From: a virus
Direction: 5' to 3' (one strand)
IMG/VR virus record: IMGVR_UViG_3300027736_000029
Coordinates: 40,267-104,266 of that record
Length of the DNA: 64,000 nt
The position numbers and the translations under genes were made by a program. Below the pieces are notes generated by a model. That model ran no database searches, was not told the origin of the DNA, and saw only the letters and a list, made by a program, of their open reading frames with translations. This document shows, in pieces, positions 33,877-63,998 of this stretch (the first letter of the stretch is position 1; each line of letters begins with the position of its first letter).

Positions 33877-33878
33877 TA

Positions 33879-39359: not shown

Positions 39360-39361
39360 CC

Positions 39362-40078: not shown

Positions 40079-40093
40079 CTTATAATTCACATT

Positions 40094-42287: not shown

Positions 42288-42288
42288 A

Positions 42289-45097: not shown

Positions 45098-45100
45098 TAC

Positions 45101-47044: not shown

Positions 47045-47062
47045 AATGAAAAATATAATTGT

Positions 47063-48094: not shown

Positions 48095-49031
48095 CAGGGT
48101 AGTATTAATAAACTCATTCTGTGATAAACAGAATAAAATTGATGTTTTAGAAAAAAACATAAAACTAATTAAATCTAATAATTTAGATGTTATATTATTA
48201 TCACCCATAAATTTACCTGAGTATATTATTGATTTATGTAATGTTTTTATTCAGACAAAAGAAAATCCTGTTACAAAATGGCCAGGAAAAACAATGTTTG
48301 AATATTGGGCTTATTGTATGGATAATAAATTTTACGAACTTCATTTAGGTAAATCAGATTATGGATGGGCGTCATTATACCAAATTAAAAAATTAAGTCA
48401 AATTGGGTTAACATATGATTATGAATATTATTTTCACATAATTTATGATACAGTAATTGACGAACATTTAATTGACACATTCTTAACTAACGAAAAATGT
48501 ATATTATTCCCAAGTAATAAAGGTTTTGAAGTTGGTGGTTTTTTTATGGGTTTTAATAAAAATGTATTAAGTTTATTTCAAGAAATAATAACTAAGGATT
48601 TATATTATAAAAACTATGATGTTGCCGAAACTTTACTATCTAACATATCAAAAGTCTTACCTTGTAAAATTGAAAAGTATGATACTAAGGATGAAATATA
48701 TTTTTTTGAAAACTTAGATTTATTTAATTATTCTATTTATGTTGATTTTAAGTTTTTCTTACATAAAAGAACATTGGCCGATGATGATACTGCTAAAATA
48801 TTTTTTTACGATTTAAATGGTTCTTATGATGTAACTGTTGAGGTAAATAACATTACTATTGATACGGTTATTAGTAATCATTATTTAATGGACCTAAATC
48901 TTCATCATGATGATGTATTTAGTTTATCAATAACATATAATGGTAATACACACAACTTAATCCATCTGTATAATAACATATCTCATAATAAAATTATAAT
49001 AACTGATGTTGATGATTGTAATAATCTTTAA
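48087..49031 (+). CDS. uncharacterised GT-A-like protein (paralog 2 of 4)
   Basis: VILLSP..LP..IIDLCN; YGWASL; YEYYFHIIYD. Confidence 0.5.
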   Translation: MNNRVVLINSFCDKQNKIDVLEKNIKLIKSNNLDVILLSPINLPEYIIDLCNVFIQTKENPVTKWPGKTMFEYWAYCMDNKFYELHLGKSDYGWASLYQIKKLSQIGLTYDYEYYFHIIYDTVIDEHLIDTFLTNEKCILFPSNKGFEVGGFFMGFNKNVLSLFQEIITKDLYYKNYDVAETLLSNISKVLPCKIEKYDTKDEIYFFENLDLFNYSIYVDFKFFLHKRTLADDDTAKIFFYDLNGSYDVTVEVNNITIDTVISNHYLMDLNLHHDDVFSLSITYNGNTHNLIHLYNNISHNKIIITDVDDCNNL

Positions 49032-49060
49032 TTTAATCAATTGTTTGTTATTATTTATTT

Positions 49061-49759
49061 ATGGATTTTAATTACTACTGCAACCAAAATAACACAGATA
49101 AAGGAGATTTATCACCACTTGGTAATCGATACGCCAATTTTTATGAAAATTGGTTTTCAAAACTAAAAAACTCAGCAACTAATATTTGTGAAATCGGTAT
49201 TGATTCTGGAGGTTCTCTAAAGTCTTATTATGATTATTTTCAAAACGCTCAAATTTTTGGATTAGATATAAATGACAAATCATTATACAATAATGATAGA
49301 ATTAAGACATTTATTTTAGACCAAAGTAAATCTCAAGATTTAGATAGTTTTGTTAATTATTGTAAATCTAATAACATCCAATTTGACTTTATATTAGATG
49401 ATGGTTCACATGATGTTGAACACCAACAATTAACTTTTGGTAAATTATTTGAATTAGTTAAACCAAACGGTTTTTATATCATTGAAGATTTGGGTAGTAG
49501 TTACTTCACATTAGGTAATAATCTTTATGGTTATATTCAAACTCAAACTAAAATTAACAATAACACGATTAAATTTTTAAATCAAAGACCATTTAGTAGT
49601 CTTTGGATTTCAGAAGAAAACTTAATACAAATCAATAACTTAGTAGATTCTGTAACCATATTTGATACATATAACAAAGATTTACCATATACTACTGATT
49701 TTACATGTGAAAATAATTACCCTATTAGGTCAATTACTTCAGTTATTAAGAAAAAATAA
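49061..49759 (+). CDS. SAM-dependent sugar O-methyltransferase (MycE/TylE-like)
   Basis: TDK, EIGI..GGSL, GLDI, DQS, ILDDGSH, GFYIIEDL. Confidence 0.85.
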   Translation: MDFNYYCNQNNTDKGDLSPLGNRYANFYENWFSKLKNSATNICEIGIDSGGSLKSYYDYFQNAQIFGLDINDKSLYNNDRIKTFILDQSKSQDLDSFVNYCKSNNIQFDFILDDGSHDVEHQQLTFGKLFELVKPNGFYIIEDLGSSYFTLGNNLYGYIQTQTKINNNTIKFLNQRPFSSLWISEENLIQINNLVDSVTIFDTYNKDLPYTTDFTCENNYPIRSITSVIKKK

Positions 49760-49761
49760 TT

Positions 49762-50778
49762 ATGAAACTTTTAACCATATTAGATTGTTACATCCATAAC
49801 AACACAATACTCAATAAATTAGATTCGTTTATTGACAAATTAAAATCAAAAAATTCTGATATTTTATTAATTTCAAATACAACTATTCCAATAGAAATTC
49901 AACAAAAAGTAGATTATTGTTTATACGATTCCAATAATCATTTTTTTTCAAGTGATTGGGAATTTTCTGAATTGTTTGTAGTTAAGACTTTAATATCTGG
50001 CGGTAATTGTCAAGATGTTTTTCCAAAATTACAACCACATGGTTTATCTGTGATGATTAATATTTTTAACGCAATTACTATTGGTAAAAGTTTAGGTTAT
50101 ACCCATTTTGAAAAATTAGAATATGACCCATTATTCTCTGACGAGTCATTTAACAATTTATCTTTATTACCTTCAAGATGTTTAGATGAAAATAAAAAAG
50201 GTTTGTACTTACTAAATAATATAACAAACCCTCCTGATGTATCCTTTCATTATTTTTTCTCTGAAATTGATTATTTTTTATCAAATGTTAAAAACATAAA
50301 ATATGAAAATGATTATCGTGATTTTATTAATCAAACAAATGGTAATAATTTCTTCATCAATGTTGAAAGATTTTTATATCAAAATTTAGAAATTTCTGGT
50401 TTAGAAAATTTTGTATTAATTAACGAAGAAGAACGAGATTTGAAATTTCCAAACACGTATTGGAATTCTGAAGTTTCACCAAATAACATACCTAAAAAAT
50501 ATAATAGCTGTACATCTCGTTTGTATTTGCCAATGGATACAAATGAGTATGTCGTATTATTATCAATGAATTATGATAATAAACATAAAGAAAGAATTAT
50601 TAAATGTTATTTTGATGATGGTTTTATTTACACATCAACACATCATATAACCAGTAAAGGTAGTTATACTTATGACAGTATAACCCCCAACATTCAGTTT
50701 ATTGAAGTATTTGAGAATGGTGAGTTACTTTATACTGAACATATCTCAGAAGTTAATAATCTAATACAAATTAGTTAA
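49762..50778 (+). CDS. uncharacterised GT-A-like protein (paralog 3 of 4)
   Basis: ILLISNT.IP..IQ..VDY..YD.NN; HGLSV; LGYTHF.KLEYD. Confidence 0.55.
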   Translation: MKLLTILDCYIHNNTILNKLDSFIDKLKSKNSDILLISNTTIPIEIQQKVDYCLYDSNNHFFSSDWEFSELFVVKTLISGGNCQDVFPKLQPHGLSVMINIFNAITIGKSLGYTHFEKLEYDPLFSDESFNNLSLLPSRCLDENKKGLYLLNNITNPPDVSFHYFFSEIDYFLSNVKNIKYENDYRDFINQTNGNNFFINVERFLYQNLEISGLENFVLINEEERDLKFPNTYWNSEVSPNNIPKKYNSCTSRLYLPMDTNEYVVLLSMNYDNKHKERIIKCYFDDGFIYTSTHHITSKGSYTYDSITPNIQFIEVFENGELLYTEHISEVNNLIQIS

Positions 50779-50780
50779 AT

Positions 50781-51911
50781 ATGAAATTCACATTTGTTAC
50801 ATCATTTTATAAAACAGAGAATTATATTAAAGAATTATATGATTCAATAAAATCACAAACCTATACCAATTGGGAATGGATTGTAACTGACGATTTTTCT
50901 GATGATAATACAAAACAAATTTTGTTAGACATTTGTTCTAATGATAAAAAAGTTAGATATATAGAACAATCCAAGAAAAAAGAAATGTTTTACAATCCAC
51001 AATGGTTTTGTAAAGAATCTGAAATTATTGTTGAACTTGGAAGTGATGATGTTATATCCCCCAAAGCTCTTGAGGTATATCTATATTATTTCACCAAATT
51101 CCCTGAAGTTATTATGATATCTTGTAGGTCCAATTCTTTTTTGGACGATGGTAGTTGGAATAACTTTGAGGTTCGTAATTTCAAGAATTGTAAAAATCTA
51201 TTGTGTGGGAATATCTTATATCTTAAAGCATGGAGAAATAAGATTACCGATGTTGATTACAACCCTGGTGATTGGATGGAGTTCTTCTATAATGATTTGG
51301 TATTCAATGCTCATTTAGAAGAGGAAGGTAAAGTATTAATCTTACCAAGAGCTTTATACAAATACAGGTATAGACCTGAATCCATCAGCAGAAAATTATA
51401 CACAATGGAAAACTTGGACAAGATGATGGATGAGAATAGAAACATTGTTTCAATGGTTAATGAACGTAGAGGTAACGAGATTGAAACGATTGACAGGTAT
51501 TTTGAGGACATTGTTGATTTATCATTACCATTTATGGATATGGAATTTTCCATGATTGATACTCAGAAAAGGATTGGGTATTTTACAACGTCAATTAACG
51601 ATAAAAAATTTGGTTTAATTAAGGAGTTATTATTTGACCAAGACGTACATTTAAACAAATTTGACCGTGAGTATGATTGGGGATTTTATTATATTAAAAC
51701 CATGACCGATGTTGTTCTTATGACGAATACAATATCCAAAATTTTTGAATTAAACCCAAACTGCAATGTTAGAATTGCCGTGGACAATATTGAAAACACT
51801 GAATTAAGAGAAAAACTTTATAATGAAATTTCTGATTTTTTATTACAAAAGTATTATTATTTCACTAACTGTTTTGAATTCTGTCTTTTTACAGTAGGAA
51901 TACCATCATGA
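50781..51911 (+). CDS. GT2 glycosyltransferase
   Basis: SIKSQTYTNWEWIVTDDFSDD, LGSDD, LYKYR. Confidence 0.9.
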   Translation: MKFTFVTSFYKTENYIKELYDSIKSQTYTNWEWIVTDDFSDDNTKQILLDICSNDKKVRYIEQSKKKEMFYNPQWFCKESEIIVELGSDDVISPKALEVYLYYFTKFPEVIMISCRSNSFLDDGSWNNFEVRNFKNCKNLLCGNILYLKAWRNKITDVDYNPGDWMEFFYNDLVFNAHLEEEGKVLILPRALYKYRYRPESISRKLYTMENLDKMMDENRNIVSMVNERRGNEIETIDRYFEDIVDLSLPFMDMEFSMIDTQKRIGYFTTSINDKKFGLIKELLFDQDVHLNKFDREYDWGFYYIKTMTDVVLMTNTISKIFELNPNCNVRIAVDNIENTELREKLYNEISDFLLQKYYYFTNCFEFCLFTVGIPS

Positions 51912-52939
51912 AAAAAATTACAATTATAGATTGCTTTATCAGTTCTGATAAAGTCTTAGAAAAATTAGAAACAATGATTTCTCAACTTAAAAATAATGGT
52001 GAGGATGTCTTTCTGTTATCTAATACAAACATACCACCACATATACAAGAATTAACAAACTATTCTTTTTACGATAAAAACAATCGTTTATTTACCGATG
52101 ATTATGAAGGTGTTAGTTTGTTGGACATTTGGAAAGGTTTTGATAAAGGTGGTATTCATGAACTTGAACCAGCGTTTCAAAGACATGGTTTGTCCGTTAT
52201 TATTAATTTATTTTTTACATTAGAATTGTGTAAAAATTTGGGATACACCCATTTTCAAAGGTTGGAAGTTGATGCGTTACTTGGAGAAAAATCATTGGAG
52301 TTCATGAAACAAATACCCCAAACTTGTTTGGAACAAAACAAAAAAGGTTGGTTTTATGTTAACAAATATGATGATGGTAAAGAAGCATCTTTTCACTACA
52401 TGTTTTGTGAAATTGATTATTTCCTAAACACCTCCCCCAAGATTAGTTGTGAAAAAGATTATCAAGATTACATCTTTAATAAATGGGGTGTTAAAAAGTT
52501 TACCCCTGTAGAGACGTTTATTTTTGATACTCTTAAATTAGAAAATAATACTGATATTATAACAAGAAATGGTAAGGACAATATGAGTTCTGATTTTGAG
52601 GGCACATATTTTAATAGTGAAACTAGTGAGGCTAACTTATCACCAAAGTATCGAGGTTGTTCAACAAGAATTTATAACTGTATCAAATGTGAAAATGAAA
52701 CGGATAAAATCATTTTAACTTTTAACTATAAAGATAAAATGGTTAAAAGAGATGTTAAAATATTTTACACTGATGGTAGTATTGATAATATAGTTCATGT
52801 TGTTGAATCTAAAGGATATTTTACTTATACTACACATTCAAAAGAAATTGAAAAGATTGAAGTTTATGAAAATGACAAATTACTATACGATGAATATAAC
52901 AAAAACATTTATAGTTACGTTGAATTTACTATATTTTAA
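51908..52939 (+). CDS. uncharacterised GT-A-like protein (paralog 4 of 4)
   Basis: VFLLSNT.IP..IQ..TNY..YD.NN; HGLSV; LGYTHF.RLEVD; collinear with 49762..50778. Confidence 0.55.
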   Translation: MKKITIIDCFISSDKVLEKLETMISQLKNNGEDVFLLSNTNIPPHIQELTNYSFYDKNNRLFTDDYEGVSLLDIWKGFDKGGIHELEPAFQRHGLSVIINLFFTLELCKNLGYTHFQRLEVDALLGEKSLEFMKQIPQTCLEQNKKGWFYVNKYDDGKEASFHYMFCEIDYFLNTSPKISCEKDYQDYIFNKWGVKKFTPVETFIFDTLKLENNTDIITRNGKDNMSSDFEGTYFNSETSEANLSPKYRGCSTRIYNCIKCENETDKIILTFNYKDKMVKRDVKIFYTDGSIDNIVHVVESKGYFTYTTHSKEIEKIEVYENDKLLYDEYNKNIYSYVEFTIF

Positions 52940-52945
52940 TAAATT

Positions 52946-55048
52946 ATGAAAATTACTCAGGTAACACCAGGTTTAATATCAATACCTCCAAAAGGTTGGG
53001 GTGCGATAGAAAAGATTATTTGGAACTATAAGATACAGTTTGAAAAAATGGGTCATGAGTGTGGTATTCAATATCTTGATGATGTTGATACCACATCTGA
53101 CATTATTCACATCCACGTTGCCAATTTGGCAATTATGGCTCAAGAAAGAGGTATACCGTATATCTTTTCATTACACGACCATCACGTTGTTCGTCATGGT
53201 AAAGATTCTCAAACTTATAAAGAAAACCTTGATGCCATTAAAGGGTCAATTATTTCTTTTACACACGCTGAAAATTTGTGTAAGTATTTTGATGAGACGG
53301 ATAAATTGTTTTATTTGAGTCATGGTGTTGATACTGAGTTATATAAAAACGACTCTCTTATTAAACCTTATACAAAATTATTGTGTGTTGCCAACAATGG
53401 ATATGCTGATAATCAAAGTGTGGATAGAAAAGGTTTTAGATATGCTATTGAAGCCGCTCGTGAGTTGAATCATCCGATTACTATTGTTGGTCCAAAAAAC
53501 AATGAGAATTTCTTTAATGTTAATAAAGATTTATTGGATTATGATAAATTACACATCATTGATACAAACCCAAATGAAGAAGAGTTAATTAAATTGTATA
53601 ATGAACATACAATATTTTTACATCCATCTGAATTAGAAGCGGGTCATCCAAATTTAACATTACTTGAGGCGATTTCATGCGGTCTTCCAATTGTTGGAAC
53701 TTATGATGGTACCAAAGAACTTAATAGTATTTACAAGATTGATAGGTCAACAAATTCTGTGGTAACAGGTATTAAACACGTTACATCAAATATTGAAACT
53801 TTTGTTAACCACACTCAAAGTGAAAAATTAAAATATGATTGGTCGGTTATTTGTAAAAGATTGTTAAACATATATAATTCAGTAAACGATATTAAAAAAG
53901 AATATAACTCTGAATTAACCAAACAACTTTACATTGATGTGTATGAAAATACCAATAAAATCGAACATGAAATATTAAATGATTATTCGTTTAATATCAA
54001 TTTTATTAAAGGTGCTTACATAGAAGTTTTAGGTTCTGCAACAAGACATTTTGATGTTGAGATTTGGAATGACAATCATTTGGATTATAAAAATAAACTC
54101 AGTTCTGGTATGTTTGCCAAAACAAATAAACAATATTTCCGTAATTGGAATATGAAAGTTTATGATGGTGATATGCCTGTTTTTGATTATAAACTTAACT
54201 TATCAGGTAAACGAGTTTATATCGCAGTTGATTCAGGTTCTTTGGGTGACAACATTGCATGGATGCCATATATTGATGAATTTAGAAAAAGACATAATTG
54301 TCATGTTATTACTTCAACATTCAAGAATGATTTGTTCAAAAATGTATATCCAAAAATTGAATTTGTAACACCTGGAAGTACAGTAAATGATTTATTTGGA
54401 ATGTACACTTTGGGTTGGTTTTATGATTTGAATAAAGAACCAACATTACCAAACATTGTTGGTTTACAAGAACATGCTAGTTTAATACTTGGTTTAGACC
54501 ACAAAGAAATTAGAACTAAAATTGATTTTACACCATCAGAAAGACCTTATGAAGAAAAATATGTGGTTATTGCAACTAGTTCAACAGCACAATGTAAATT
54601 TTGGAATAATGAAACAGGTTGGGTTGAATTGGTTGATTACTTAAAATCAAAAGGTTATAGGGTAATCAACATATCAAAAGAAGGTAACAATGTTCACAAC
54701 GCTGAAATGATTAATGATACTTCAATGTATAATACCCAAAACGTAATTTACCATAGTGAATTTATGATTGGATTATCAAGTGGTTTATCTTGGTTATCAT
54801 GGGCTTTAGGAAAACACGTTGTTATGTTATCAAACTTCACAAGTGCTGACCATGAATTTGTCGGTGATTGTACAAGAATCGTTAATTACGATGTATGTAA
54901 TGGTTGTTGGAATAAAGCTATGTTTAAGTTTGATAAAGGTGATTGGAATTGGTGTCCTGAACACAAAAATACTTCAAGACAACACGAGTGTCATAAATTA
55001 ATAACGTCAGAAATGGTAATAAATCAAATACAACATTTAATAAAATGA
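52946..55048 (+). CDS. GT4 glycosyltransferase fused to an Aah/TibC-family (BAHT) O-glycosyltransferase
   Basis: N-terminal IPPKGWGAIE, RKG, EAGHPNLTLLEAISCGLP; C-terminal SLGDNIAW, YVVIATSSTAQCKFWNN..GW, IGLSSGLSWLSWA, CNGCWN..CPEHKNT.RQHEC. Confidence 0.92.
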   Translation: MKITQVTPGLISIPPKGWGAIEKIIWNYKIQFEKMGHECGIQYLDDVDTTSDIIHIHVANLAIMAQERGIPYIFSLHDHHVVRHGKDSQTYKENLDAIKGSIISFTHAENLCKYFDETDKLFYLSHGVDTELYKNDSLIKPYTKLLCVANNGYADNQSVDRKGFRYAIEAARELNHPITIVGPKNNENFFNVNKDLLDYDKLHIIDTNPNEEELIKLYNEHTIFLHPSELEAGHPNLTLLEAISCGLPIVGTYDGTKELNSIYKIDRSTNSVVTGIKHVTSNIETFVNHTQSEKLKYDWSVICKRLLNIYNSVNDIKKEYNSELTKQLYIDVYENTNKIEHEILNDYSFNINFIKGAYIEVLGSATRHFDVEIWNDNHLDYKNKLSSGMFAKTNKQYFRNWNMKVYDGDMPVFDYKLNLSGKRVYIAVDSGSLGDNIAWMPYIDEFRKRHNCHVITSTFKNDLFKNVYPKIEFVTPGSTVNDLFGMYTLGWFYDLNKEPTLPNIVGLQEHASLILGLDHKEIRTKIDFTPSERPYEEKYVVIATSSTAQCKFWNNETGWVELVDYLKSKGYRVINISKEGNNVHNAEMINDTSMYNTQNVIYHSEFMIGLSSGLSWLSWALGKHVVMLSNFTSADHEFVGDCTRIVNYDVCNGCWNKAMFKFDKGDWNWCPEHKNTSRQHECHKLITSEMVINQIQHLIK

Positions 55049-55422
55049 ATATAGAAGTATCACACGGAGAGATTGTCGATAAGTTAACAATTCTCCAAAT
55101 TAAAAAAGAAAATATAAAAGACCCAAGTAAGTTGGATAATATTGTAAAGGAGTACAATTATTTATTATCAATCGTTGAGAATGATTTAGGTATTTTAACG
55201 TCATCTCCTGAATATTTAGAACTATTATCAATTAATAAGGACCTTTGGGTTATTGAAGATGATATTAGAGAAAAAGAAAGGCAAAAACAATTTGACGATG
55301 ATTTCGTTAAACTTGCTCGTGATGTTTACTACACCAACGATGTTCGTGCTAAAATAAAAAAAGAAATAAACCTGAAATATTCATCAGGGTTTATTGAAGA
55401 GAAAAGTTATTCTCAATATTAA
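55045..55422 (+). CDS. DUF6165-like protein
   Basis: VS.GEIVDKLTILQIK; LW.IEDDIR; LAR.VY.TND.R; EEKSY. Confidence 0.8.
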   Translation: MNIEVSHGEIVDKLTILQIKKENIKDPSKLDNIVKEYNYLLSIVENDLGILTSSPEYLELLSINKDLWVIEDDIREKERQKQFDDDFVKLARDVYYTNDVRAKIKKEINLKYSSGFIEEKSYSQY

Positions 55423-55713: not shown

Positions 55714-56403
55714 TTATGTTACGTATATGTCATAAAGAATTCCACTACTATTGGTAAATCCTTGTGACGCACCACCTGACTGCCAAGTAAAACTACCACC
55801 ACCGCCACCAACGTTAATTCTTGTTGTACCATTAACACTAAATGCTATATTACTTATAGTGTTACCAGGATTTGTGTTTACTTGAATACTCCAATAAACA
55901 TTATCTACTAAAGGAAAACTATTAACAGAAAAACCAGGCATTTGGGTTGCTCCTGCAGATGTTCCTCCAGGAGCATTAATATTAAAACTATTATGAACTG
56001 TATAAACACCATTATAATCATAACAGTTAACAGTAACGTTTACATCATTTATAACCGGAGGGGGTGGAAAAAATGTATTGTTTTTTGTATTATTGTAAGA
56101 ATATTTTATATCATAAGTAGTTCCATCAAAATAAAATTGGTTGTTTTGGAATTCAGCAAAAGATGTTGGGTCAGGTATTGAACCACTTAAATCAGGAAAA
56201 TTATATATAACATTACCCCCTAATGGTACTCCACCACCTGAGCCATCCATTCCATAACCATTATAGGTATAGGTAGATGAACCCAATGGTCCTTGAGCCC
56301 ATGAGTTATATGATATTCCCCCCAAACTTTCGCTTGAGGAGAAACCAGGTGTTGATTCTTGGTATATATCATCTAAACCTAAATTTGTACTTGGTAATGC
56401 CAT
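55714..56403 (-). CDS. putative fibre-tip/adhesin-like protein
   Basis: G/S/N/aromatic-rich beta-type sequence immediately downstream of the S74 fibre; MALPS..L.L.DI start. Confidence 0.5.
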   Translation of the reverse strand: MALPSTNLGLDDIYQESTPGFSSSESLGGISYNSWAQGPLGSSTYTYNGYGMDGSGGGVPLGGNVIYNFPDLSGSIPDPTSFAEFQNNQFYFDGTTYDIKYSYNNTKNNTFFPPPPVINDVNVTVNCYDYNGVYTVHNSFNINAPGGTSAGATQMPGFSVNSFPLVDNVYWSIQVNTNPGNTISNIAFSVNGTTRINVGGGGGSFTWQSGGASQGFTNSSGILYDIYVT

Positions 56404-56408: not shown

Positions 56409-59400
56409 TTACTTTTTAAGTTCGTTAATTTGTTGTTGTAAATTATCCATTTTGTTTGATAATTCTTTAATTGCTTCAATTAACAATCCACTCATGTTAC
56501 CGTATGCCACTGACATTATTCCTGTTTCTTTATCTGTATTTACAACTTCAGGTAAAACTTCATTTACATCTTGTGCGATAACACCAGCGTATCTTCTGTC
56601 ATTGTCATTATCAATATCGGTTCTTACATAAGTAACACCGTTAATTTGTTGAATTTTACTTAAAGCTTCATCAATTACCTTAACATCTCCTTTAATTCTT
56701 GCGTCTGAGTATGCTACAATATCAGCCGATGCGTATATTGAAATACCACTCACGTTAGCATTTACGTGTAATGGATAACTTGGTGATGTTGTTGCAACAC
56801 CTAATCTACTATTTGTAATGTCTGCGTATAGGAAAGATGTTGATTGAATTGTTGAACCGTTAACTGTGTATACCAAGTAGTTAGGTTGGTTTGTGAATAC
56901 ACCACCACTGATACCACTTGTACCCGATGCTGGTGACAAACCTGATGAACCTGCGGTTCCTGATGTACCCGAAGTTCCTGAAGTTCTTGATGCTCCTGAT
57001 GTACCAGCAGCTCCTGACGAACCTGATGTTCCTGATGTTCCTGATGTTCCTGAAGTTTGTGATGCTCCTGATGCTCCCGCATTTCCTGCAGCTCCTGCCG
57101 AACCTGATGTACCACTTGTACCTGAAGTTCCTGAAGTTTGTGATGCTCCTGATGCTCCCGCATTTCCTACCGCTCCCGCAGTACCACTTGTACCCGATGT
57201 TCCTGAAGTTTGAGATACACCTGATGCTCCTGCAGTTCCCGCCGCTCCTGATGAACCTGAAGTACCTGATGTACCTGAAGTTCCTGAAGTTTGAGATACT
57301 CCTGATGCTCCTGCGTTTCCTGATGCTCCTGCCGAACCTGATGTACCTGATGTTCCTGATGTTCCTGAAGAACCACTTGAACCTGATGCTCCTGAGTTAC
57401 CTGAGTTACCTGCCGCTCCTGATGTTCCTGATGTACCTGATGTTCCTGAAGAACCACTTGAACCTGATGCTCCCGATGTACCAGCCGCTCCTGAAGCTCC
57501 TGATGTTCCACTAGTTCCTGATGTACCTGAAGTTTGTGATGCTCCTGAAGCTCCTGCAGCTCCTGCCGCTCCCGATGAACCATTTGTACCTGATGTACCT
57601 GATGTACCTGAAGTTTGTGATGCTCCTGAAGCTCCTGCAGCTCCTGCCGCTCCCGATGAACCATTTGTACCTGATGTACCTGATGTACCTGAAGTTTGTG
57701 ATGCTCCTGAAGCTCCTGCAGCACCTGCCGCTCCCGATGAACCTGACGTTCCTGATGTTCCTGAAGTTCCTGAAGTTTGAGACGCTCCTGATGTACCAAC
57801 AGCTCCCGATGCTCCCGATGTACCACTCGTACCCGATGTACCTGAAGTTTGTGATGCTCCTGATGCTCCTGCAGCTCCCGCAGTACCACTTGTACCTGAT
57901 GTTCCTGAAGTTTGAGATGCTCCTGACGCTCCTGCTGCTCCCGCAGTACCTGATGTACCTGACGTTCCTGAAGTTTGTGATGCTCCTGATGCTCCAGCCG
58001 CTCCTGATGAACCTGAAGTTCCACTTGTTCCTGAAGAACCCGACGCTCCTGATGCTCCCGATGAACCTGAAGAACCACTTGAACCTGATGTTCCTGAAGT
58101 ACCTGAAGTTTGTGACGCTCCTGAAGAACCAGCATTTCCTGACGCTCCCGCAGTACCACTAGTACCTGATGTACCTGAGGTTTGTGATGCTCCTGATGCT
58201 CCTGCCGCTCCTGATGAACCCGAAGTTCCACTTGTTCCTGAAGAACCTGACGCTCCTGATGCTCCCGATGAACCTGAAGAACCACTTGAACCAGATGTTC
58301 CTGATGTTCCACTAGTTTGTGACGCTCCTGAAGTACCAGCATTTCCTGATGCTCCTGCAGTACCACTTGTACCTGATGTACCTGAAGTTTGTGATGCTCC
58401 TGATGCTCCTGCCGCTCCTGATGAACCTGAAGTTCCACTTGTTCCTGAAGAACCTGACGCTCCTGATGCTCCCGATGAACCTGAAGAACCACTTGAACCT
58501 GATGTTCCTGATGTACCTGAAGTTTGTGACGCTCCTGAAGTACCAGCATTTCCTGATGCTCCTGCAGTACCACTTGTACCTGATGTACCTGAAGTTTGTG
58601 ATGCTCCTGAAGCTCCTGCCGCTCCTGATGAACCTGAAGTTCCACTTGTTCCTGAAGAACCTGACGCTCCTGATGCTCCCGATGAACCTGAAGAACCACT
58701 TGAACCTGATGTTCCTGATGTACCTGAAGTTTGTGACGCTCCTGAAGTACCAGCATTTCCTGATGCTCCCGCAGTACCACTTGTACCTGATGTACCTGAA
58801 GTTTGTGATGCTCCTGAAGCTCCTGCCGCTCCTGATGAACCACTTGTACCTGAAGTACCGCTAGTTCCTGAAGAACCTGATGCTCTTGAAATTCCTGATG
58901 AACCGTCAGAACCACTTGAACCTGATGTTCCTGAAGTTCCACTAGTTCCTGAAGTACGTGAAAGTCCTGAAGAACCCGCTGAACCTGAAGAACCACTTGA
59001 ACCTGATGTTCCTGATGTACCTGATGTTCCAGAAGTCTGACTCAATCCTGAAGAACCTGCCGAACCTGAAGAACCACTTGAACCTGAAGTTCCTGAAGTA
59101 CCTGAAGTTTGTGATGCTCCTGAAGCTCCTGCAGTTCCTGCCGCTCCTGATGAACCTGATGTTCCTGATGTACCTGATGTTCCTGAAGTTTGCGATACTC
59201 CTGCCGCTCCTGCTGAACCTGAAGAACCACTTGAACCTGATGTACCAGAAGTACCTGATGTTCCTGAAGAACCAGCAGAACCTGAACTTCCTGAAGAACC
59301 TGATGTTCCTGATGTACCTGAAGTTTGAGATGCTCCTGACGTACCTGCCACTCCTGATGCTCCTGATGTTCCACTAGTACCTGATGTTCCTGATGTTTGA

Positions 59401-62400
59401 GATGCTCCTGATGCTCCCGCAGAACCTGAAGAACCGCTTGAACCTGATGTTCCACTAGTTCCTGATGTTCCTGAAGTCTGACTCAATCCTGAAGAACCTG
59501 CAGAGCCGCTTGAACCTGATGTTCCGCTAGTTCCTGATGTTCCACTAGTTCCTGAAGAACCTGATGTTCCTGAAGAACCCGAAGAGCCACTTGAACCTGA
59601 TGTTCCACTAGTACCTGATGTTTGAGATGCTCCTGATGTTCCAGCTGAACCTGAAGAACCGCTTGAACCTGATGTTCCTGATGTTCCACTAGTTCCTGAA
59701 GTTTGAGAAAGTCCTGAAGAACCTGCAGAACCACTTGAACCTGATGTTCCGCTAGTTCCTGATGTTCCACTAGTTCCTGAAGAACCTGATGTTCCACTTG
59801 AACCTGAAGAACCACTTGAACCAGATGTTCCTGATGTACCTGAAGTCTTAGATGCTCCTGAAGTACCTGCTGAACCGTCAGAACCACTTGAACCTGATGT
59901 TCCTGATGTTCCACTAGTTCCTGAAGTCTTAGATGCTCCTGAAGTACCCGCTGAACCGTCAGAACCACTTGAACCTGATGTTCCACTAGTTCCTGATGTT
60001 CCTGAAGTACGTGAAAGTCCTGAAGAACCTGCCGAACCTGAAGAACCGCTTGAACCTGATGTTCCGCTAGTTCCTGATGTTCCTGAAGTCTGAGAAAGTC
60101 CTGAAGAACCCGCTGAACCTGAAGAACCGCTTGAACCTGATGTTCCTGAAGTACCGCTAGTTCCTGAAGTCTGACTCAATCCTGAAGAACCTGCTGAACC
60201 ACTTGAACCACTTGAACCTGATGTTCCTGATGTACCTGATGTTCCTGAAGTTTGTGAAAGTCCTGAAGAACCTGCAGAACCTGAAGAACCACTTGAACCT
60301 GATGTTCCTGAAGTACCGCTAGTTCCTGAAGTTTGAGAAAGTCCTGAAGAACCTGCAGAACCACTTGAACCTGATGTTCCACTAGTTCCTGATGTTCCAC
60401 TTGAACCTGCTGAACCTGAAGAACCACTTGAACCTGATGTTCCACTAGTTCCTGAAGTCTGAGATGCTCCTGATGTTCCTGCTGAACCTGAAGAACCGCT
60501 TGAGCCTGATGTTCCTGAAGTACCGCTAGTTCCTGAAGTTTGAGAAAGTCCTGAAGAACCTGCAGAACCACTTGAACCTGATGTTCCACTAGTTCCTGAT
60601 GTTCCACTTGAACCTGCTGAACCTGAAGAACCACTTGAACCTGATGTTCCACTAGTTCCTGAAGTCTGAGATGCTCCTGATGTTCCTGCTGAACCTGAAG
60701 AACCGCTTGAACCTGATGTTCCTGAAGTACCGCTAGTTCCTGAAGTTTGAGAAAGTCCTGAAGAACCTGCTGAACCTGAAGAACCACTTGAACCTGATGT
60801 TCCTGAAGTACCCGATGTTCCTGAAGAACCAGATGTTCCTGAAGAACCTGATGTTCCCGAAGAACCACTTGAACCACTTGAACCTGAAGTTCCTGATGTT
60901 CCTGAAGTTTTAGATGCTCCTGAAGTACCCGCTGAACCGTCAGAACCACTTGAACCTGATGTTCCGCTAGTTCCTGATGTTCCTGAAGTACGTGAAAGTC
61001 CTGAAGAACCTGCTGAACCTGAAGAACCACTTGAACCTGATGTTCCACTAGTTCCTGATGTTCCTGAAGTCTGACTCAATCCTGAAGAACCTGCAGAACC
61101 ACTTGAACCTGATGTTCCTGATGTTCCGCTAGTACCACTTGTTCCTGAAGAACCTGATGTTCCGCTAGTTCCTGAAGAACCTGATGTTCCTGAAGAACCT
61201 GAAGAACCACTTGAACCTGATGTTCCACTAGTTCCTGATGTTTGAGATGCTCCTGATGTTCCCGCAGAACCTGAAGAACCACTTGAACCCGATGTTCCGC
61301 TAGTACCACTTGTTCCTGAAGTTTGAGAAAGTCCTGAAGAACCTGCTGAACCACTTGAACCTGATGTTCCTGATGTTCCACTAGTTCCTGAAGAACCTGC
61401 CGAACCTGAAGAACCACTTGAACCTGATGTTCCGCTAGTTCCTGATGTTTGAGATGCTCCTGATGTTCCCGCAGAACCTGAAGAACCACTTGAACCTGAT
61501 GTTCCGCTAGTTCCTGATGTTCCTGAAGTCTGACTCAATCCTGAAGAACCTGCAGAACCACTTGAACCTGAAGTTCCACTAGTTCCTGATGTTCCACTTG
61601 AACCTGCTGAACCTGAAGAACCTGCTGAACCTGATGTTCCTGAAGTACCTGAAGTTTGAGATGCTCCTGATGTTCCTGCTGAACCTGAAGAACCACTTGA
61701 ACCTGATGTACCTGAAGTACCCGATGTTCCTGAAGTTTGAGAAAGTCCTGAAGAACCTGCTGAACCTGAAGAACCTGATGTTCCTGAAGTTCCACTAGTT
61801 CCTGAAGAACCAGATGTTCCTGATGTTCCACTTGTTCCTGAAGAACCTGATGTTCCTGAAGAACCTGAAGAACCGCTCGAACCTGATGTTCCTGAAGTAC
61901 CACTTGTTCCTGAAGTCTGACTCAACCCTGAAGAACCTGCTGAACCACTTGAACCTGATGTTCCACTAGTACCACTTGTTCCTGAAGAACCTGATGTTCC
62001 TGATGTTCCACTAGTTCCTGAAGAACCTGATGTTCCACTTGAACCTGAAGAACCACTTGAACCTGATGTTCCGCTAGTTCCTGATGTACCACTTGTTCCT
62101 GAAGAACCTGATGTTCCACTTGAACCTGAAGAACCACTTGAGCCAGATGTTCCACTTGTTCCTGATGTACCACTTGTTCCTGAAGAACCTGATGTTCCAC
62201 TTGACCCTGAAGAACCACTTGAACCAGATGTTCCACTTGTTCCTGATGTTCCTGAAGTCTTAGACGCTCCTGAAGTACCCGCAGAACCGTCAGAACCACT
62301 AGAACCTGAGGTTCCGCTAGTTCCTGATGTTCCTGAAGTTTTAGATGCTCCTGAAGTACCCGCTGAACCGTCAGAACCACTTGAACCTGATGTTCCGCTA

Positions 62401-63998
62401 GTTCCTGATGTTCCTGAAGTACGTGAAAGTCCTGAAGAACCTGCTGAACCTGAAGAACCACTTGAACCTGATGTTCCACTAGTTCCTGATGTTCCTGAAG
62501 TCTGACTCAATCCTGAAGAACCTGCAGAACCACTTGAACCTGATGTTCCTGATGTTCCGCTAGTACCACTTGTTCCTGAAGAACCTGATGTTCCGCTAGT
62601 TCCTGAAGAACCTGATGTTCCTGAAGAACCTGAAGAACCACTTGAACCTGATGTTCCACTAGTTCCTGATGTTTGAGATGCTCCTGATGTTCCCGCAGAA
62701 CCTGAAGAACCACTTGAACCCGATGTTCCGCTAGTACCACTTGTTCCTGAAGTTTGAGAAAGTCCTGAAGAACCTGCTGAACCACTTGAACCTGATGTTC
62801 CTGATGTTCCACTAGTTCCTGAAGAACCTGCCGAACCTGAAGAACCACTTGAACCTGATGTTCCGCTAGTTCCTGATGTTTGAGATGCTCCTGATGTTCC
62901 CGCAGAACCTGAAGAACCACTTGAACCTGATGTTCCGCTAGTTCCTGATGTTCCTGAAGTCTGACTCAATCCTGAAGAACCTGCAGAACCACTTGAACCT
63001 GAAGTTCCACTAGTTCCTGATGTTCCACTTGAACCTGCTGAACCTGAAGAACCTGCTGAACCTGATGTTCCTGAAGTACCTGAAGTTTGAGATGCTCCTG
63101 ATGTTCCTGCTGAACCTGAAGAACCACTTGAACCTGATGTACCTGAAGTACCCGATGTTCCTGAAGTTTGAGAAAGTCCTGAAGAACCTGCTGAACCTGA
63201 AGAACCTGATGTTCCTGAAGTTCCACTAGTTCCTGAAGAACCAGATGTTCCTGATGTTCCACTTGTTCCTGAAGAACCTGATGTTCCTGAAGAACCTGAA
63301 GAACCGCTCGAACCTGATGTTCCTGAAGTACCACTTGTTCCTGAAGTCTGACTCAACCCTGAAGAACCTGCTGAACCACTTGAACCTGATGTTCCACTAG
63401 TACCACTTGTTCCTGAAGAACCTGATGTTCCTGATGTTCCACTAGTTCCTGAAGAACCTGATGTTCCACTTGAACCTGAAGAACCACTTGAACCTGATGT
63501 TCCGCTAGTTCCTGATGTACCACTTGTTCCTGAAGAACCTGATGTTCCACTTGAACCTGAAGAACCACTTGAGCCAGATGTTCCACTTGTTCCTGATGTA
63601 CCACTTGTTCCTGAAGAACCTGATGTTCCACTTGACCCTGAAGAACCACTTGAACCAGATGTTCCACTTGTTCCTGATGTTCCTGAAGTCTTAGACGCTC
63701 CTGAAGTACCCGCAGAACCGTCAGAACCACTTGAACCAGATGTTCCACTTGTTCCTGATGTTCCTGAAGTCTTAGACGCTCCTGAAGTACCCGCAGAACC
63801 GTCAGAACCACTAGAACCTGATGTTCCGCTAGTTCCTGATGTTCCTGAAGTACGCGAAAGTCCTGAAGAACCTGCAGAACCTGAAGAACCACTTGAACCT
63901 GATGTTCCGCTAGTACCTGATGTTCCTGAAGTTTGAGAAAGTCCTGAAGAACCTGCTGAACCTGAAGAACCTGATGTTCCGCTAGTTCCTGATGTTCC
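56409..63998 (-). CDS. giant Gly-X-Y (Ser/Thr-rich) repeat fibre with C-terminal Peptidase S74 chaperone; 5' end outside window
   Basis: Frame stays open past the TTG at 63356 to the window edge (>=2529 codons); C-terminal RLGV....P..PLHV, then YSDARIK, GVIAQDV..VLPEVV, V.YGNM.GLLIEAIKEL. Confidence 0.92.
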   Translation of the reverse strand, partial: GTSGTSGTSGSSGSAGSSGLSQTSGTSGTSGTSGSSGSSGSAGSSGLSRTSGTSGTSGTSGSSGSDGSAGTSGASKTSGTSGTSGTSGSSGSDGSAGTSGASKTSGTSGTSGTSGSSGSSGSSGTSGSSGTSGTSGTSGTSGSSGSSGSSGTSGSSGTSGTSGTSGTSGSSGSSGSSGTSGSSGTSGTSGTSGSSGTSGTSGTSGSSGSAGSSGLSQTSGTSGTSGTSGSSGSSGSSGTSGSSGTSGTSGTSGSSGTSGTSGTSGSSGSAGSSGLSQTSGTSGTSGTSGSSGSSGSAGTSGASQTSGTSGTSGSAGSSGSAGSSGTSGTSGTSGSSGSAGSSGLSQTSGTSGTSGTSGSSGSSGSAGTSGASQTSGTSGTSGSSGSSGSAGSSGTSGTSGTSGSSGSAGSSGLSQTSGTSGTSGTSGSSGSSGSAGTSGASQTSGTSGTSGSSGSSGSSGTSGSSGTSGTSGSSGTSGTSGTSGTSGSSGSAGSSGLSQTSGTSGTSGTSGSSGSSGSAGSSGLSRTSGTSGTSGTSGSSGSDGSAGTSGASKTSGTSGTSGTSGSSGSDGSAGTSGASKTSGTSGTSGTSGSSGSSGSSGTSGSSGTSGTSGTSGTSGSSGSSGSSGTSGSSGTSGTSGTSGTSGSSGSSGSSGTSGSSGTSGTSGTSGSSGTSGTSGTSGSSGSAGSSGLSQTSGTSGTSGTSGSSGSSGSSGTSGSSGTSGTSGTSGSSGTSGTSGTSGSSGSAGSSGLSQTSGTSGTSGTSGSSGSSGSAGTSGASQTSGTSGTSGSAGSSGSAGSSGTSGTSGTSGSSGSAGSSGLSQTSGTSGTSGTSGSSGSSGSAGTSGASQTSGTSGTSGSSGSSGSAGSSGTSGTSGTSGSSGSAGSSGLSQTSGTSGTSGTSGSSGSSGSAGTSGASQTSGTSGTSGSSGSSGSSGTSGSSGTSGTSGSSGTSGTSGTSGTSGSSGSAGSSGLSQTSGTSGTSGTSGSSGSSGSAGSSGLSRTSGTSGTSGTSGSSGSDGSAGTSGASKTSGTSGTSGSSGSSGSSGTSGSSGTSGSSGTSGTSGTSGSSGSSGSAGSSGLSQTSGTSGTSGTSGSSGSSGSAGTSGASQTSGTSGTSGSSGSSGSAGSSGTSGTSGTSGSSGSAGSSGLSQTSGTSGTSGTSGSSGSSGSAGTSGASQTSGTSGTSGSSGSSGSAGSSGTSGTSGTSGSSGSAGSSGLSQTSGTSGTSGTSGSSGSSGSAGSSGLSQTSGTSGTSGTSGSSGSSGSAGSSGLSQTSGTSGTSGTSGSSGSSGSAGSSGLSQTSGTSGTSGTSGSSGSSGSAGSSGLSRTSGTSGTSGTSGSSGSDGSAGTSGASKTSGTSGTSGTSGSSGSDGSAGTSGASKTSGTSGTSGSSGSSGSSGTSGSSGTSGTSGTSGTSGSSGSAGSSGLSQTSGTSGTSGTSGSSGSSGSAGTSGASQTSGTSGTSGSSGSSGSSGTSGSSGTSGTSGTSGTSGSSGSAGSSGLSQTSGTSGTSGTSGSSGSSGSAGASGASQTSGTSGTSGTSGASGVAGTSGASQTSGTSGTSGSSGSSGSAGSSGTSGTSGTSGSSGSSGSAGAAGVSQTSGTSGTSGTSGSSGAAGTAGASGASQTSGTSGTSGSSGSSGSAGSSGLSQTSGTSGTSGTSGSSGSSGSAGSSGLSRTSGTSGTSGTSGSSGSDGSSGISRASGSSGTSGTSGTSGSSGAAGASGASQTSGTSGTSGTAGASGNAGTSGASQTSGTSGTSGSSGSSGSSGASGASGSSGTSGTSGSSGAAGASGASQTSGTSGTSGTAGASGNAGTSGASQTSGTSGTSGSSGSSGSSGASGASGSSGTSGTSGSSGAAGASGASQTSGTSGTSGTAGASGNAGTSGASQTSGTSGTSGSSGSSGSSGASGASGSSGTSGTSGSSGAAGASGASQTSGTSGTSGTAGASGNAGSSGASQTSGTSGTSGSSGSSGSSGASGASGSSGTSGTSGSSGAAGASGASQTSGTSGTSGTAGAAGASGASQTSGTSGTSGTAGAAGASGASQTSGTSGTSGTSGASGAVGTSGASQTSGTSGTSGTSGSSGAAGAAGASGASQTSGTSGTSGTNGSSGAAGAAGASGASQTSGTSGTSGTNGSSGAAGAAGASGASQTSGTSGTSGTSGASGAAGTSGASGSSGSSGTSGTSGTSGAAGNSGNSGASGSSGSSGTSGTSGTSGSAGASGNAGASGVSQTSGTSGTSGTSGSSGAAGTAGASGVSQTSGTSGTSGTAGAVGNAGASGASQTSGTSGTSGTSGSAGAAGNAGASGASQTSGTSGTSGTSGSSGAAGTSGASRTSGTSGTSGTAGSSGLSPASGTSGISGGVFTNQPNYLVYTVNGSTIQSTSFLYADITNSRLGVATTSPSYPLHVNANVSGISIYASADIVAYSDARIKGDVKVIDEALSKIQQINGVTYVRTDIDNDNDRRYAGVIAQDVNEVLPEVVNTDKETGIMSVAYGNMSGLLIEAIKELSNKMDNLQQQINELKK

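What the first reader, a model, noticed from the sequence alone, without database searches (positions are those of the whole stretch)
56409..63998. Giant proline-free Gly-X-Y fibre made almost only of Gly/Ser/Thr/Ala
Seen: over 2300 residues of triplets (G-T-S, G-S-S, G-A-S, G-S-A) with essentially no Pro and few charges, ending in a trimerising, self-cleaving S74 domain (YS-DARIK). Known: S74 chaperones fold trimeric fibres. Collagen helices normally rely on Pro/Hyp or charge pairs, but glycosylated Thr stabilises vent-worm cuticle collagen. Gly-X-X repeats can also form polyglycine-II bundles. Inference: if a continuous triple helix, this would be a filament several hundred nm long, and its folding may depend on glycosylation by the adjacent island.
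Basis: partly seen in the sequence, partly recalled or inferred. Interest (0 to 1): 0.82.

Follow-up and report, generated by a model that had tools for sequence, protein, structure and literature searches.

The report
Giant proline-free collagen-like phage fibre
An uncultured T4-like water phage, probably of Flavobacteria, encodes a fibre protein of more than 2,500 residues made of collagen-type three-residue repeats without proline or charge, which ends in a self-cleaving trimerising chaperone, sits beside enzymes that probably coat it with sugars, and would be 0.7 µm or longer if it folds like collagen.

Summary
ORF 56409-63998 (-) is 2,529 aa and is cut at its 5' end by the contig end. It holds 2,365 residues (788 triplets) in one unbroken triplet register, with 1 Pro and 22 charged residues. 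It ends in a Peptidase_S74 domain with an intact Ser/Lys dyad (YS|DARIK).

The repeat is not continuous Gly-X-Y. Sixty-seven in-register triplets lack Gly (Q/R/K-T-S, most often every 9 triplets), and the longest clean run is 37 triplets.

The gene family is real. Independent IMG/VR contigs carry complete genes of 2,733 to 4,661 aa with the same junction, a shared ~121-aa N-terminal domain and the same periodic Gly-less triplets. These genes lie between the head-completion and tail-sheath genes of Immutovirus-like myoviruses.

In about 21 related loci the fibre gene is followed by GT4, GT4 and a TibC-type protein O-heptosyltransferase. The window holds orthologues of all three. This supports glycosylation of the fibre. 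Whether folding depends on glycosylation is untested.

Both AlphaFold monomer models were uninformative.

The scan has found the same kind of system before on other DNA, in at least 8 genomes.

Verdict: a new variant of phage collagen-like fibres. The triple helix is inferred, not shown.

The parts
56409..63998 (-). Fibre gene. It is truncated at the 5' end by the contig end: 2,529 aa plus a stop codon at 56409-56411.
56904..63998 (-). Collagen-like repeat: residues 1-2365 of the partial ORF, 788 triplets in one register. It has 722 Gly-X-Y triplets and 67 Gly-less [Q/R/K]-T-S triplets, most often 9 triplets apart, and 1 Pro.
   Evidence: Pfam Collagen PF01391
60888..63731 (.). Exact 1,413-nt tandem duplicate (60888-62300 = 62319-63731, offset 1,431 nt = 477 aa). 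It is either a recent duplication or a source of assembly uncertainty.
56706..56903 (-). Junction or tip region (residues 2366-2431) that would be the mature C-terminus after cleavage. It holds the family hallmark GGVF-NQP-YLV...FLYADITNSRLG...SPSYPLHV. The Ser2431 codon is at 56706-56708.
56412..56708 (-). Peptidase_S74 intramolecular chaperone domain (Ser2431 to the end). The Ser2431/Lys2436 dyad lies in S-D-A-R-I-K, and the predicted cut is after Ser2431.
   Evidence: Pfam; PHROG tail-fibre families; PDB 6F45 (S16 gp37) at 2.6e-8 and MYRF 7DC3; invariant S, D and K
55714..56403 (-). 229-aa ORF that starts 5 nt after the fibre stop codon. An ORF of 170-232 aa sits right after all seven S74-ending relatives examined; most share the N-terminal motif MA.P...I.F.DI..E (looser in L008/L009) and differ in the rest. 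It is a candidate tip-binding adhesin or assembly factor.
   Evidence: no Pfam, PHROG or PDB match; AF2 pLDDT 37
52946..55048 (+). GT4 fused to a TibC-type (BAHT) glycosyltransferase, convergent with the fibre gene. It is the orthologue of the GT4(319)+TibC(398) pair that follows the fibre gene in relatives.
   Evidence: Pfam; PDB 4RB4/4RAP TibC at E=3e-58 over 65-383 of 406 with the C-terminal 4-Cys motif; tblastn
45101..47044 (+). GT4 plus an FkbM methyltransferase. Its N-terminal 330 aa are 46-50% identical to the 885-aa GT4 that directly follows the fibre gene in relatives.
41040..42287 (+). Second TibC-type glycosyltransferase.
   Evidence: PDB 4RAP at E=2e-40; 32% identity to the L012 TibC-like gene
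37018..55422 (+). The rest of the glycan island: hexapeptide acetyltransferase, oxidoreductase, DegT aminotransferase, GT9, carbamoyltransferase, methyltransferases, GT2 and DUF6165.

Best explanation
This is the stalk-forming subunit of a very long homotrimeric virion fibre of an uncultured Immutovirus-like (T4-superfamily) myovirus, probably of Flavobacteria.

Proposed mechanism:
- Three chains are brought together at their C-termini by the S74 intramolecular chaperone, which folds the short beta-rich tip just upstream (shown by homology).
- This nucleates C-to-N zippering of the Gly-X-Y region into a collagen-type triple helix (inferred).
- The helix is broken every 8-9 triplets by one Gly-less triplet, which acts as a local kink or joint. 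The product would be a flexible, jointed thread at least 0.68 µm long here and about 1.25 µm long in the longest complete relative (inferred).
- The chaperone then removes itself by Ser2431/Lys2436 autoproteolysis (inferred from the conserved dyad).
- Because the stalk has no Pro and almost no charge pairs, its many Ser and Thr are probably O-glycosylated in the cytoplasm by the co-inherited TibC-type heptosyltransferase and GT4 enzymes. This would stiffen and stabilise the PPII or triple-helical conformation (inferred from conserved gene linkage).
- The small gene just downstream probably supplies a protein that docks on the cleaved tip, as gp38 does on T2/S16 gp37 (analogy only).
- The likely role is long-range capture of host cells or their surface structures.
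For: Sequence:
- The triplet register is perfect over 788 triplets, with one Pro.
- S74 scores above the Pfam cut-off, and S, D and K are invariant in 7 relatives.
- The best solved match is the chaperone-bearing C-terminus of Salmonella phage S16 long-tail-fibre gp37 (6F45), followed by MYRF. PHROG tail-fibre families match at up to 3e-39.

Family:
- 25 IMG/VR loci share the junction.
- Complete open frames of 4,661, 4,021, 3,919, 2,757 and 2,733 aa share a ~121-aa N-terminal domain.
- The 8-9-triplet spacing of Gly-less triplets is seen in the window and in seven of the nine relatives analysed (two shorter ones are more irregular), although the replacing residue differs (A, N, Q, R, S).

Virion context in relatives: the gene order is portal, major head protein, PhoH, head completion, fibre, GTs, tail sheath, gp19 tube, T4 baseplate. 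The same slot in Flavobacterium phage immuto holds annotated tail-fibre genes.

Glycosylation:
- GT4-GT4-TibC follows the fibre gene in about 21 loci at 56-100% identity, and the window holds orthologues.
- TibC homology is E=2.6e-58, 3e-58 and 2e-40.
- Among loci fetched through the TibC half alone, 13 of 18 have Pro-free Gly-X-Y ORFs within 10 kb.

Literature: Thr glycosylation is an accepted alternative stabiliser of collagen helices, and C-to-N zipper folding is established (PMC11923368).
Against: - No structural evidence exists. The AF2 monomer of the last 240 aa had pLDDT 34.
- From host-guest peptide data as I recall them, Thr at X and Ser at Y are poor triple-helix formers.
- Gln, Arg or Lys in a Gly position cannot be accommodated in a canonical helix, and 67 such sites could prevent stable folding.
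- Salt-bridge clamps, proposed as the general folding aid for long collagens (PMC11923368), are absent.
- Virion incorporation, the attachment site, cleavage and glycosylation are all unobserved.
- The N-terminal anchor has no recognisable homologue.
- This contig lacks the sheath, capsid and portal genes, so the virion context is borrowed from relatives.
- The repeat copy number here is uncertain.
Confidence: 0.5

Rival explanations
1. Mucin-like glycosylated brush, not a triple helix. The three chains are joined only at the S74-folded tip and at the N-terminal anchor. The Gly/Ser/Thr region is an extended, heavily O-glycosylated, largely unpaired PPII-like tether that serves as a sticky or shielding glycan hair.
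For: The residues have low helix propensity, with no Pro and no charge pairs. There are many Gly-less triplets. A large dedicated glycan island is present. AF2 gives no structure for the repeat.
Against: A disordered tether has no need for Gly at every third residue. Yet the register is kept for 788 triplets here and for 4,374 residues with a single shift in a relative. It is also conserved across divergent lineages whose X/Y residues differ.
Confidence: 0.2
2. A polyglycine-II or other non-collagen PPII bundle, or a beta-solenoid. Each 24-27-residue unit between Gly-less triplets would be one structural element that folds back on its neighbours, giving a much shorter and thicker fibre.
For: The unit length of 8-9 triplets is regular, and a conserved hydrophobic residue (L/V/I/A) sits next to each break. 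The nearest solved S74 relative belongs to the S16 gp37-gp38 system, whose adhesin uses a PGII sandwich (the PGII point is from my own knowledge).
Against: Gly is only 30.5%, whereas known PGII bundles need Gly on two faces. The breaks contain no turn-forming residues. AF2 produced no compact fold (weak evidence). A C-terminal trimeriser next to Gly-X-Y is the classical collagen arrangement.
Confidence: 0.1
3. Largely an assembly artefact. The giant length would come from mis-assembled or looped repeats at a contig end, and the true gene would be far shorter.
For: The contig ends inside the repeat. There is an exact 1,413-nt tandem duplicate. Short family members exist, for example P0135 at 268 aa with 8 triplets.
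Against: Complete genes of 2,733-4,661 aa, flanked by unique sequence on both sides, occur in several independent metagenomes. Beyond the duplicate the sequence diverges rather than looping.
Confidence: 0.05

Closest known systems
Phage and prophage collagen-like tail-fibre proteins ('Bacteriophage collagen', Smith et al. 1998, as cited in PMC1079782; E. coli O157 prophage EPclA/B, PMC3368898; cyanophage P-SSM2 orf28, PMC1079782)
   Same: These are Gly-X-Y tracts inside trimeric phage fibre proteins. The Collagen + Peptidase_S74 architecture already exists in databases (P0028 and P0120; phrog_1980).
   Different: Known examples have tens to a few hundred triplets, contain Pro and/or many charged residues, and are mostly uninterrupted. 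This protein has at least 788 triplets (up to about 1,458 in relatives), 1 Pro and under 1% charge. It has a Gly-less triplet every 8-9 triplets and a co-inherited glycosyltransferase set.
S74 intramolecular chaperone fibres: K1F endosialidase, T5 pb1, and T2/S16-type gp37 with the gp38 adhesin (PDB 6F45)
   Same: All have a C-terminal S74 domain with a Ser/Lys dyad. The best solved match is S16 gp37. As with gene 38, a small gene follows immediately.
   Different: In those proteins the chaperone folds a triple beta-helix or a receptor-binding tip. Here only about 65 residues separate it from a collagen-like stalk. The downstream ORF shows no detectable homology to gp38.
TibC-TibA and Aah-AIDA-I (bacterial autotransporter heptosyltransferases, BAHT; PDB 4RAP/4RB4; PMC4358343)
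   Same: The window and its relatives encode near full-length TibC homologues with the C-terminal Cys motif, placed next to a Ser-rich repetitive substrate candidate. BAHT enzymes hyperglycosylate Ser in repetitive passenger domains in the cytoplasm.
   Different: The presumed substrate is a phage Gly-X-Ser fibre, not a beta-helical autotransporter. The enzyme is phage-encoded, here fused to a GT4, and accompanied by further GTs and sugar-tailoring enzymes. Neither the donor sugar nor the acceptor sites are known.
Glycosylated-threonine collagens: Riftia cuticle collagen and Bacillus BclA (cited in PMC11923368)
   Same: The idea is shared: O-glycosylated Thr replaces hydroxyproline as the helix stabiliser.
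   Different: Those are Gly-Pro-Thr or Gly-X-Thr, with Thr at Y and abundant Pro. Here Thr is at X, Ser is at Y and Pro is absent.
Procollagen C-propeptide
   Same: It is a C-terminal trimerising domain that nucleates C-to-N zipper folding and is then removed by proteolysis.
   Different: It is unrelated in sequence and fold and is cut by a separate protease, whereas S74 cuts itself.

Membership tests
Peptidase_S74 / intramolecular chaperone domain (PF13884) | Profile match above the curated cut-off at the extreme C-terminus | tested here: met
   56.2 bits against a cut-off of 22, E=4e-15, starting exactly at Ser2431. PDB matches are 6F45 at 2.6e-8 and MYRF 7DC3.
Peptidase_S74 / intramolecular chaperone domain (PF13884) | Catalytic Ser and Lys five residues apart (S-x4-K) | tested here: met
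   The motif is S-D-A-R-I-K. S, D and K are invariant in 7 aligned relatives and align with S-D-R-R-I-K of S16 gp37.
Peptidase_S74 / intramolecular chaperone domain (PF13884) | Autoproteolytic release after trimer folding | not testable with these tools
   This needs expression and mass spectrometry.
Collagen triple-helix repeat (PF01391) | Profile match above the cut-off | tested here: met
   37.8 bits against 27.2 on the last 263 aa.
Collagen triple-helix repeat (PF01391) | Gly at every third residue without interruption | tested here: not met
   The register is perfect, but 67 of 789 first positions are Q, R, K or P. The longest clean run is 37 triplets. The same holds in relatives.
Collagen triple-helix repeat (PF01391) | Known stabilisers: Pro/Hyp, or Lys-Glu/Asp charge pairs | tested here: not met
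   The repeat has 1 Pro and 22 charged residues in 2,365. The complete relative has 1 Pro and 16 charged residues in 4,374.
Collagen triple-helix repeat (PF01391) | Adjacent trimerisation domain | tested here: met
   The S74 domain lies 65 residues downstream.
Collagen triple-helix repeat (PF01391) | Forms a triple helix | not testable with these tools
   The AF2 monomer model was uninformative (pLDDT 34). No multimer prediction was available.
BAHT (TibC/Aah protein O-heptosyltransferases) for the neighbouring enzymes | Near full-length homology to TibC, including the C-terminal four-Cys motif | tested here: met
   E=3e-58 over TibC residues 65-383 with C..C...C...C aligned. The second window copy gives E=2e-40 and the relative gives E=2.6e-58.
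BAHT (TibC/Aah protein O-heptosyltransferases) for the neighbouring enzymes | Paired with an autotransporter substrate and uses ADP-heptose | tested here: not met
   No autotransporter is present in the window or the related loci. The conserved neighbour is the Gly-X-Ser fibre. The donor sugar was not tested.
T2/S16-type gp37-gp38 fibre tip | gp38-like adhesin gene immediately downstream of an S74-ending fibre gene | tested here: inconclusive
   The position and a conserved N-terminus with a variable body fit. No sequence match to any family or PDB chain was found, and the AF2 model had pLDDT 37.
Polyglycine-II bundle proteins | Very high Gly content (two of three faces) and short helices joined by turns | tested here: not met
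   Gly is 30.5% and occurs only at one position of the triplet. No compact fold was predicted (weak evidence).

The most novel reading that the evidence does not exclude
The stalk is a true collagen-type triple helix that holds together without proline, hydroxyproline or salt bridges. It would be stabilised instead by dense O-glycosylation of Ser and Thr by phage-encoded TibC-type and GT4 enzymes, and articulated by evolutionarily conserved Gly-less 'joint' triplets every 7-8 nm. That would make a jointed thread 0.7-1.25 µm long, the longest known appendage of a bacterial virus relative to its size, used as a fishing line for hosts. It would define a third way of stabilising collagen and a new substrate class for BAHT enzymes.
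Probability: 0.3. Interest if true: 0.85.

Novelty: new variant of a known kind. Interest (0 to 1): 0.62.

Why it matters
Collagen stability is currently explained by imino acids, charge pairs or glycosylated Thr at the Y position. A natural sequence of thousands of residues that has none of the first two, and that tolerates a non-Gly residue every 8-9 triplets, would test those rules. It would also offer a proline-free, possibly sugar-tunable scaffold for biomaterials.

For phage biology, a micron-scale fibre would change ideas of encounter radius and host capture in dilute waters.

Conserved pairing with TibC-type enzymes would make virion protein glycosylation a recurrent trait of a whole group of aquatic T4-like phages. 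It would also widen the known substrates of the BAHT family.

Tried and rejected
- AF2 of the last 240 aa (repeat + tip + S74, 7-sequence alignment) gave pLDDT 34, so no fold search was made.
- AF2 of the 229-aa downstream ORF gave pLDDT 37.
- ESM Atlas gave only unnamed viral clusters for the 229-aa ORF and for the relatives' N-terminal domain. It gave a weak 0.86 lead to T4 gp9/gp10_N, which I do not rely on.
- A profile search of the small ORF against the PDB found nothing.
- A word-indexed protein search with the C-terminus among 1,390-4,426-aa proteins returned 396 S74 giants, but only two of the 120 listed had collagen tracts. The giant Gly-X-Y relatives are evidently missing from that database.
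- A full HMMER search with the 73-aa junction found the motif repeated in thousands of non-collagen fibre giants. It found only short or partial Gly-X-Y members.
- No cultured phage carries the N-terminal anchor domain.
- The contig is not circularly closed, so the 5' end cannot be recovered.
- The 885-aa protein of relatives is not the counterpart of the window's 896-aa ORF.
- Literature searches for Gly-Thr-Ser or Gly-Ser-Ser collagen-like phage fibres found no description.
- I considered a secreted or host-surface protein and rejected it. The N-termini of relatives have no signal peptide, and TibC-type glycosylation is cytoplasmic.
Full report
**Observation.**
The window is the last 64 kb of a 104,266-bp IMG/VR virus record. 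ORF 56409-63998 on the minus strand runs off the contig end. The contig start is unrelated sequence, so the 5' end is lost rather than sitting in another window.

The translation has 2,529 residues. The first 2,365 form 788 triplets in one register with no shift. The composition is S 40.1%, G 30.5%, T 16.4% and A 7.9%, with one Pro and 22 charged residues. The main triplets are GTS, GSS, GAS and GSA. G+C rises from about 30% to 47% across the repeat, as its codons require.

One important exception applies: 67 of the 789 first positions are not Gly (Q 52, R 7, K 7, P 1). These always occur as G-[A/L/V/I]-S / [Q/R/K]-T-S / G-T-S, most often 9 triplets apart. The longest uninterrupted Gly-X-Y run is 37 triplets.

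An exact 1,413-nt tandem duplicate (60888-62300 = 62319-63731) lies near the contig end. Beyond it the sequence diverges, so it is not a simple assembly loop, but the copy number here is uncertain.

**C-terminus.**
The last 263 aa match Peptidase_S74 (56.2 bits against a cut-off of 22) and Collagen (37.8 against 27.2). They also match many PHROG tail-fibre families, up to 3e-39.

The Pfam S74 match starts at Ser2431 of the motif Y-S-D-A-R-I-K. Ser, Asp and Lys (i+5) are invariant in seven aligned relatives. They align with S-D-R-R-I-K of the long-tail-fibre gp37 of Salmonella phage S16 (PDB 6F45, E=2.6e-8) and with MYRF (7DC3).

tblastn finds this domain in 1,536 phage records, best in Vibrio schizo-T4 long-tail-fibre genes at 48-55% identity.

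Between the repeat and the Ser lie about 65 residues. This junction carries a motif (…RLG-x-x-T-x-S-P-S-Y-P-L-H-V…) that occurs, often in many tandem copies, in thousands of other giant fibre proteins. It would be the mature tip after cleavage.

**The family is real.**
A viral-contig scan with the C-terminus returned 25 loci. Seven share the junction plus S74 at 62-73% identity. Others share the junction but carry different, S74-less distal domains, so the junction is a module boundary.

Following the genes to their starts gave complete open frames:
- 4,661 aa in three contigs
- 4,021 aa
- 3,919 aa
- 2,757 aa
- 2,733 aa

All begin with the same ~121-aa N-terminal domain at 79-85% identity. The longest has 4,374 residues of repeat with 1 Pro, 16 charged residues and a single register change.

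The periodic Gly-less triplet is shared by the window and seven of the nine relatives analysed. Typically seven or eight Gly-X-Y triplets are followed by one x-[T/L/S]-S triplet. The replacing residue differs by lineage (Ala, Asn, Gln, Arg, Ser). A hydrophobic residue is usually adjacent. Two shorter members, L020 and L023, have more irregular spacing.

Short members also exist, for example a 268-aa protein with 8 triplets. The Gly-X-Y region therefore behaves as an extensible spacer. These facts argue against an assembly artefact and for selection on the triplet pattern itself.

**Genomic context.**
In relatives the gene order is portal, major head protein, PhoH, head-completion-like protein, two small ORFs, fibre, GTs, tail sheath, gp19-type tube, T4-type baseplate.

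The nearest cultured phage by capsid protein (52% identity) is Flavobacterium phage immuto, a 160-kb myovirus of the genus Immutovirus. Its equivalent slot between head completion and sheath holds annotated tail-fibre and structural genes. CheckV estimates for the relatives (26-34% complete at 42-55 kb) also fit genomes of about 160 kb.

The gene is therefore embedded in the virion module, at the head-to-tail junction of the gene order. Whether the fibre hangs from the neck or the baseplate cannot be told, because the N-terminal domain has no recognisable relative.

The window's own contig carries replication genes (primase, exonuclease, SbcC-like) but no sheath. The virion context is therefore inferred from relatives.

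**Glycosyltransferases.**
In about 21 related loci the fibre gene is followed by three genes:
- an 885-aa GT4
- a 319-aa GT4
- a 398-aa protein that matches E. coli TibC over almost its full length (PDB 4RAP, E=2.6e-58)

These are conserved at 56-100% identity. The window has orthologues of all three:
- 45101-47044: GT4 plus FkbM methyltransferase.
- 52946-55048: GT4 fused to a TibC-type domain (E=3e-58, with the C-terminal four-Cys motif aligned).
- 41040-42287: a second TibC-type gene (E=2e-40).

In the window these sit in an 18-kb island, convergent with the fibre gene. The island also encodes an acetyltransferase, an oxidoreductase, a DegT aminotransferase, a carbamoyltransferase, methyltransferases, GT2 and GT9.

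I also sampled loci through the TibC half alone. Of those 18 loci, 13 had Pro-free Gly-X-Y ORFs within 10 kb. Several of the five without one were truncated just before the position where sibling contigs carry it. I ran no formal control.

TibC-type enzymes hyperglycosylate Ser in repetitive adhesin domains in the cytoplasm (PMC4358343), which suits a phage protein assembled in the cytoplasm. I take glycosylation of the fibre as likely (about 0.6-0.65). Its effect on folding is open.

**The small downstream gene.**
A 229-aa ORF starts 5 nt after the fibre stop codon. An ORF of 170-232 aa sits immediately after each of the seven S74-ending relatives I examined. Most share an N-terminal motif (M-A-x-P-x-x-x-I-x-F-x-D-I-x-x-E, looser in L008/L009) and diverge in the rest: 72% identity in one relative and about 19-31% in the others.

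S74-less forms have no such gene, or an unrelated one. It has no Pfam, PHROG or PDB match, and its AF2 model is unreliable.

A conserved docking end with a variable body, plus a position like gene 38 after gene 37 in T2/S16-type phages, makes a tip-binding adhesin the best guess. This is analogy only.

**How it probably works.**
The S74 domain trimerises the C-termini and folds the tip. The Gly-X-Y chains then zip from C to N, the established direction for collagens (PMC11923368). S74 removes itself at Ser2431. This resembles procollagen and its C-propeptide.

At 0.286 nm per residue (textbook value) the partial stalk would be about 676 nm long, and the longest relative about 1.25 µm.

The conserved Gly-less triplets cannot sit in a canonical helix core. 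They should make local kinks roughly every 7-8 nm, giving a jointed thread.

The sequence lacks Pro and lacks the Lys-Glu/Asp clamps proposed as the general folding aid of long collagens (PMC11923368). From host-guest data as I recall them, Thr at X and Ser at Y have low helix propensity. Some extra stabiliser is therefore needed, and the co-inherited glycosyltransferases are the obvious candidate.

**Rivals.**
- A mucin-like glycosylated tether without chain pairing would not need Gly conserved at every third position.
- A polyglycine-II or solenoid fold is disfavoured by the 30.5% Gly content.
- An assembly artefact is excluded for the family, though not for the exact length here.

**Comparison and novelty.**
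Collagen-like tracts in phage fibres, and the Collagen + S74 architecture, are known (PMC1079782, PMC3368898). Collagen-like proteins of up to about 2,000 triplets are recorded in prokaryotes (PMC11923368).

What differs here:
- the combination of extreme length in a phage
- the near-total absence of Pro and charge
- Ser fixed at Y
- a conserved periodic Gly-less triplet
- a co-inherited TibC-type/GT4 set

I found no paper describing this.

Other readers and follow-up agents of this scan have reported the same kind of system on other DNA, in at least 8 genomes. Among them is what looks like the contig behind my L004-6 loci. My tests agree with theirs.

I class it as a new variant of a known kind, with interest 0.62.

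Noticed in passing
L012, L017, L020, L018 and L023 compared with L001-L007 (junction GGVF-NQP-YLV...FLYADITNSRLG): The same N-terminal domain, giant Gly-X-Y stalk and junction are joined to at least three different distal ends: S74 directly, a ~250-aa non-S74 domain ending ...YFTNG, and a long 'GIGTTSP' repeat domain. The junction therefore acts as a recombination or module boundary for swapping fibre tips.
   Followed up: partly
L023 N-terminus (…LPNYLVYNVNNGSIGY…) and window 56850-56900 (…QPNYLVYTVNGSTIQ…): A similar short motif (N-Y-L-V-Y-x-V-N-x-G-S) brackets the collagen-like region at both its N- and C-terminal borders in some family members. It may be a helix-capping or nucleating strand.
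   Followed up: no
window 60888-62300 and 62319-63731: There is an exact 1,413-nt tandem duplicate inside the repeat, with divergence resuming after it. It is either a very recent expansion or a sign that copy number varies in the population.
   Followed up: partly
window 28343-36569 (-): Three large ORFs (734, 779 and 896 aa) lie on the fibre's strand on the far side of the glycan island. The 779-aa one has SprB repeats and a weak 'virion structural protein' PHROG match. They could be further substrates of the island. The 896-aa ORF is not related to the 885-aa GT4 of relatives.
   Followed up: partly
window 4925-6283 (-) and G000:C1:38350-40104 (-): A leucine-rich-repeat protein and a paralogue-like protein share phrog_28193. 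LRR proteins are unusual in a phage.
   Followed up: no
window 18102-19526 (-), 20236-22653 (-), 25178-27157 (-): These are an Eco57I-like methylase domain protein, an SbcC-like nuclease subunit, an exonuclease and a DNA primase. They form the replication and recombination module of the phage.
   Followed up: no
L036 and L040 (13751-20813, minus strand): In another lineage, fetched through the TibC-type gene, two or three shorter Pro-free Gly-X-Y ORFs (about 280-1,200 aa) lie convergent to the glycosyltransferase, in the same arrangement as this window.
   Followed up: partly
protein database hits P0122-P0134: The 73-aa junction motif occurs 12-49 times in tandem in non-collagen giants of 2,800-6,100 aa. 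The fibre tip here is therefore a single unit of a very widespread fibre repeat.
   Followed up: no
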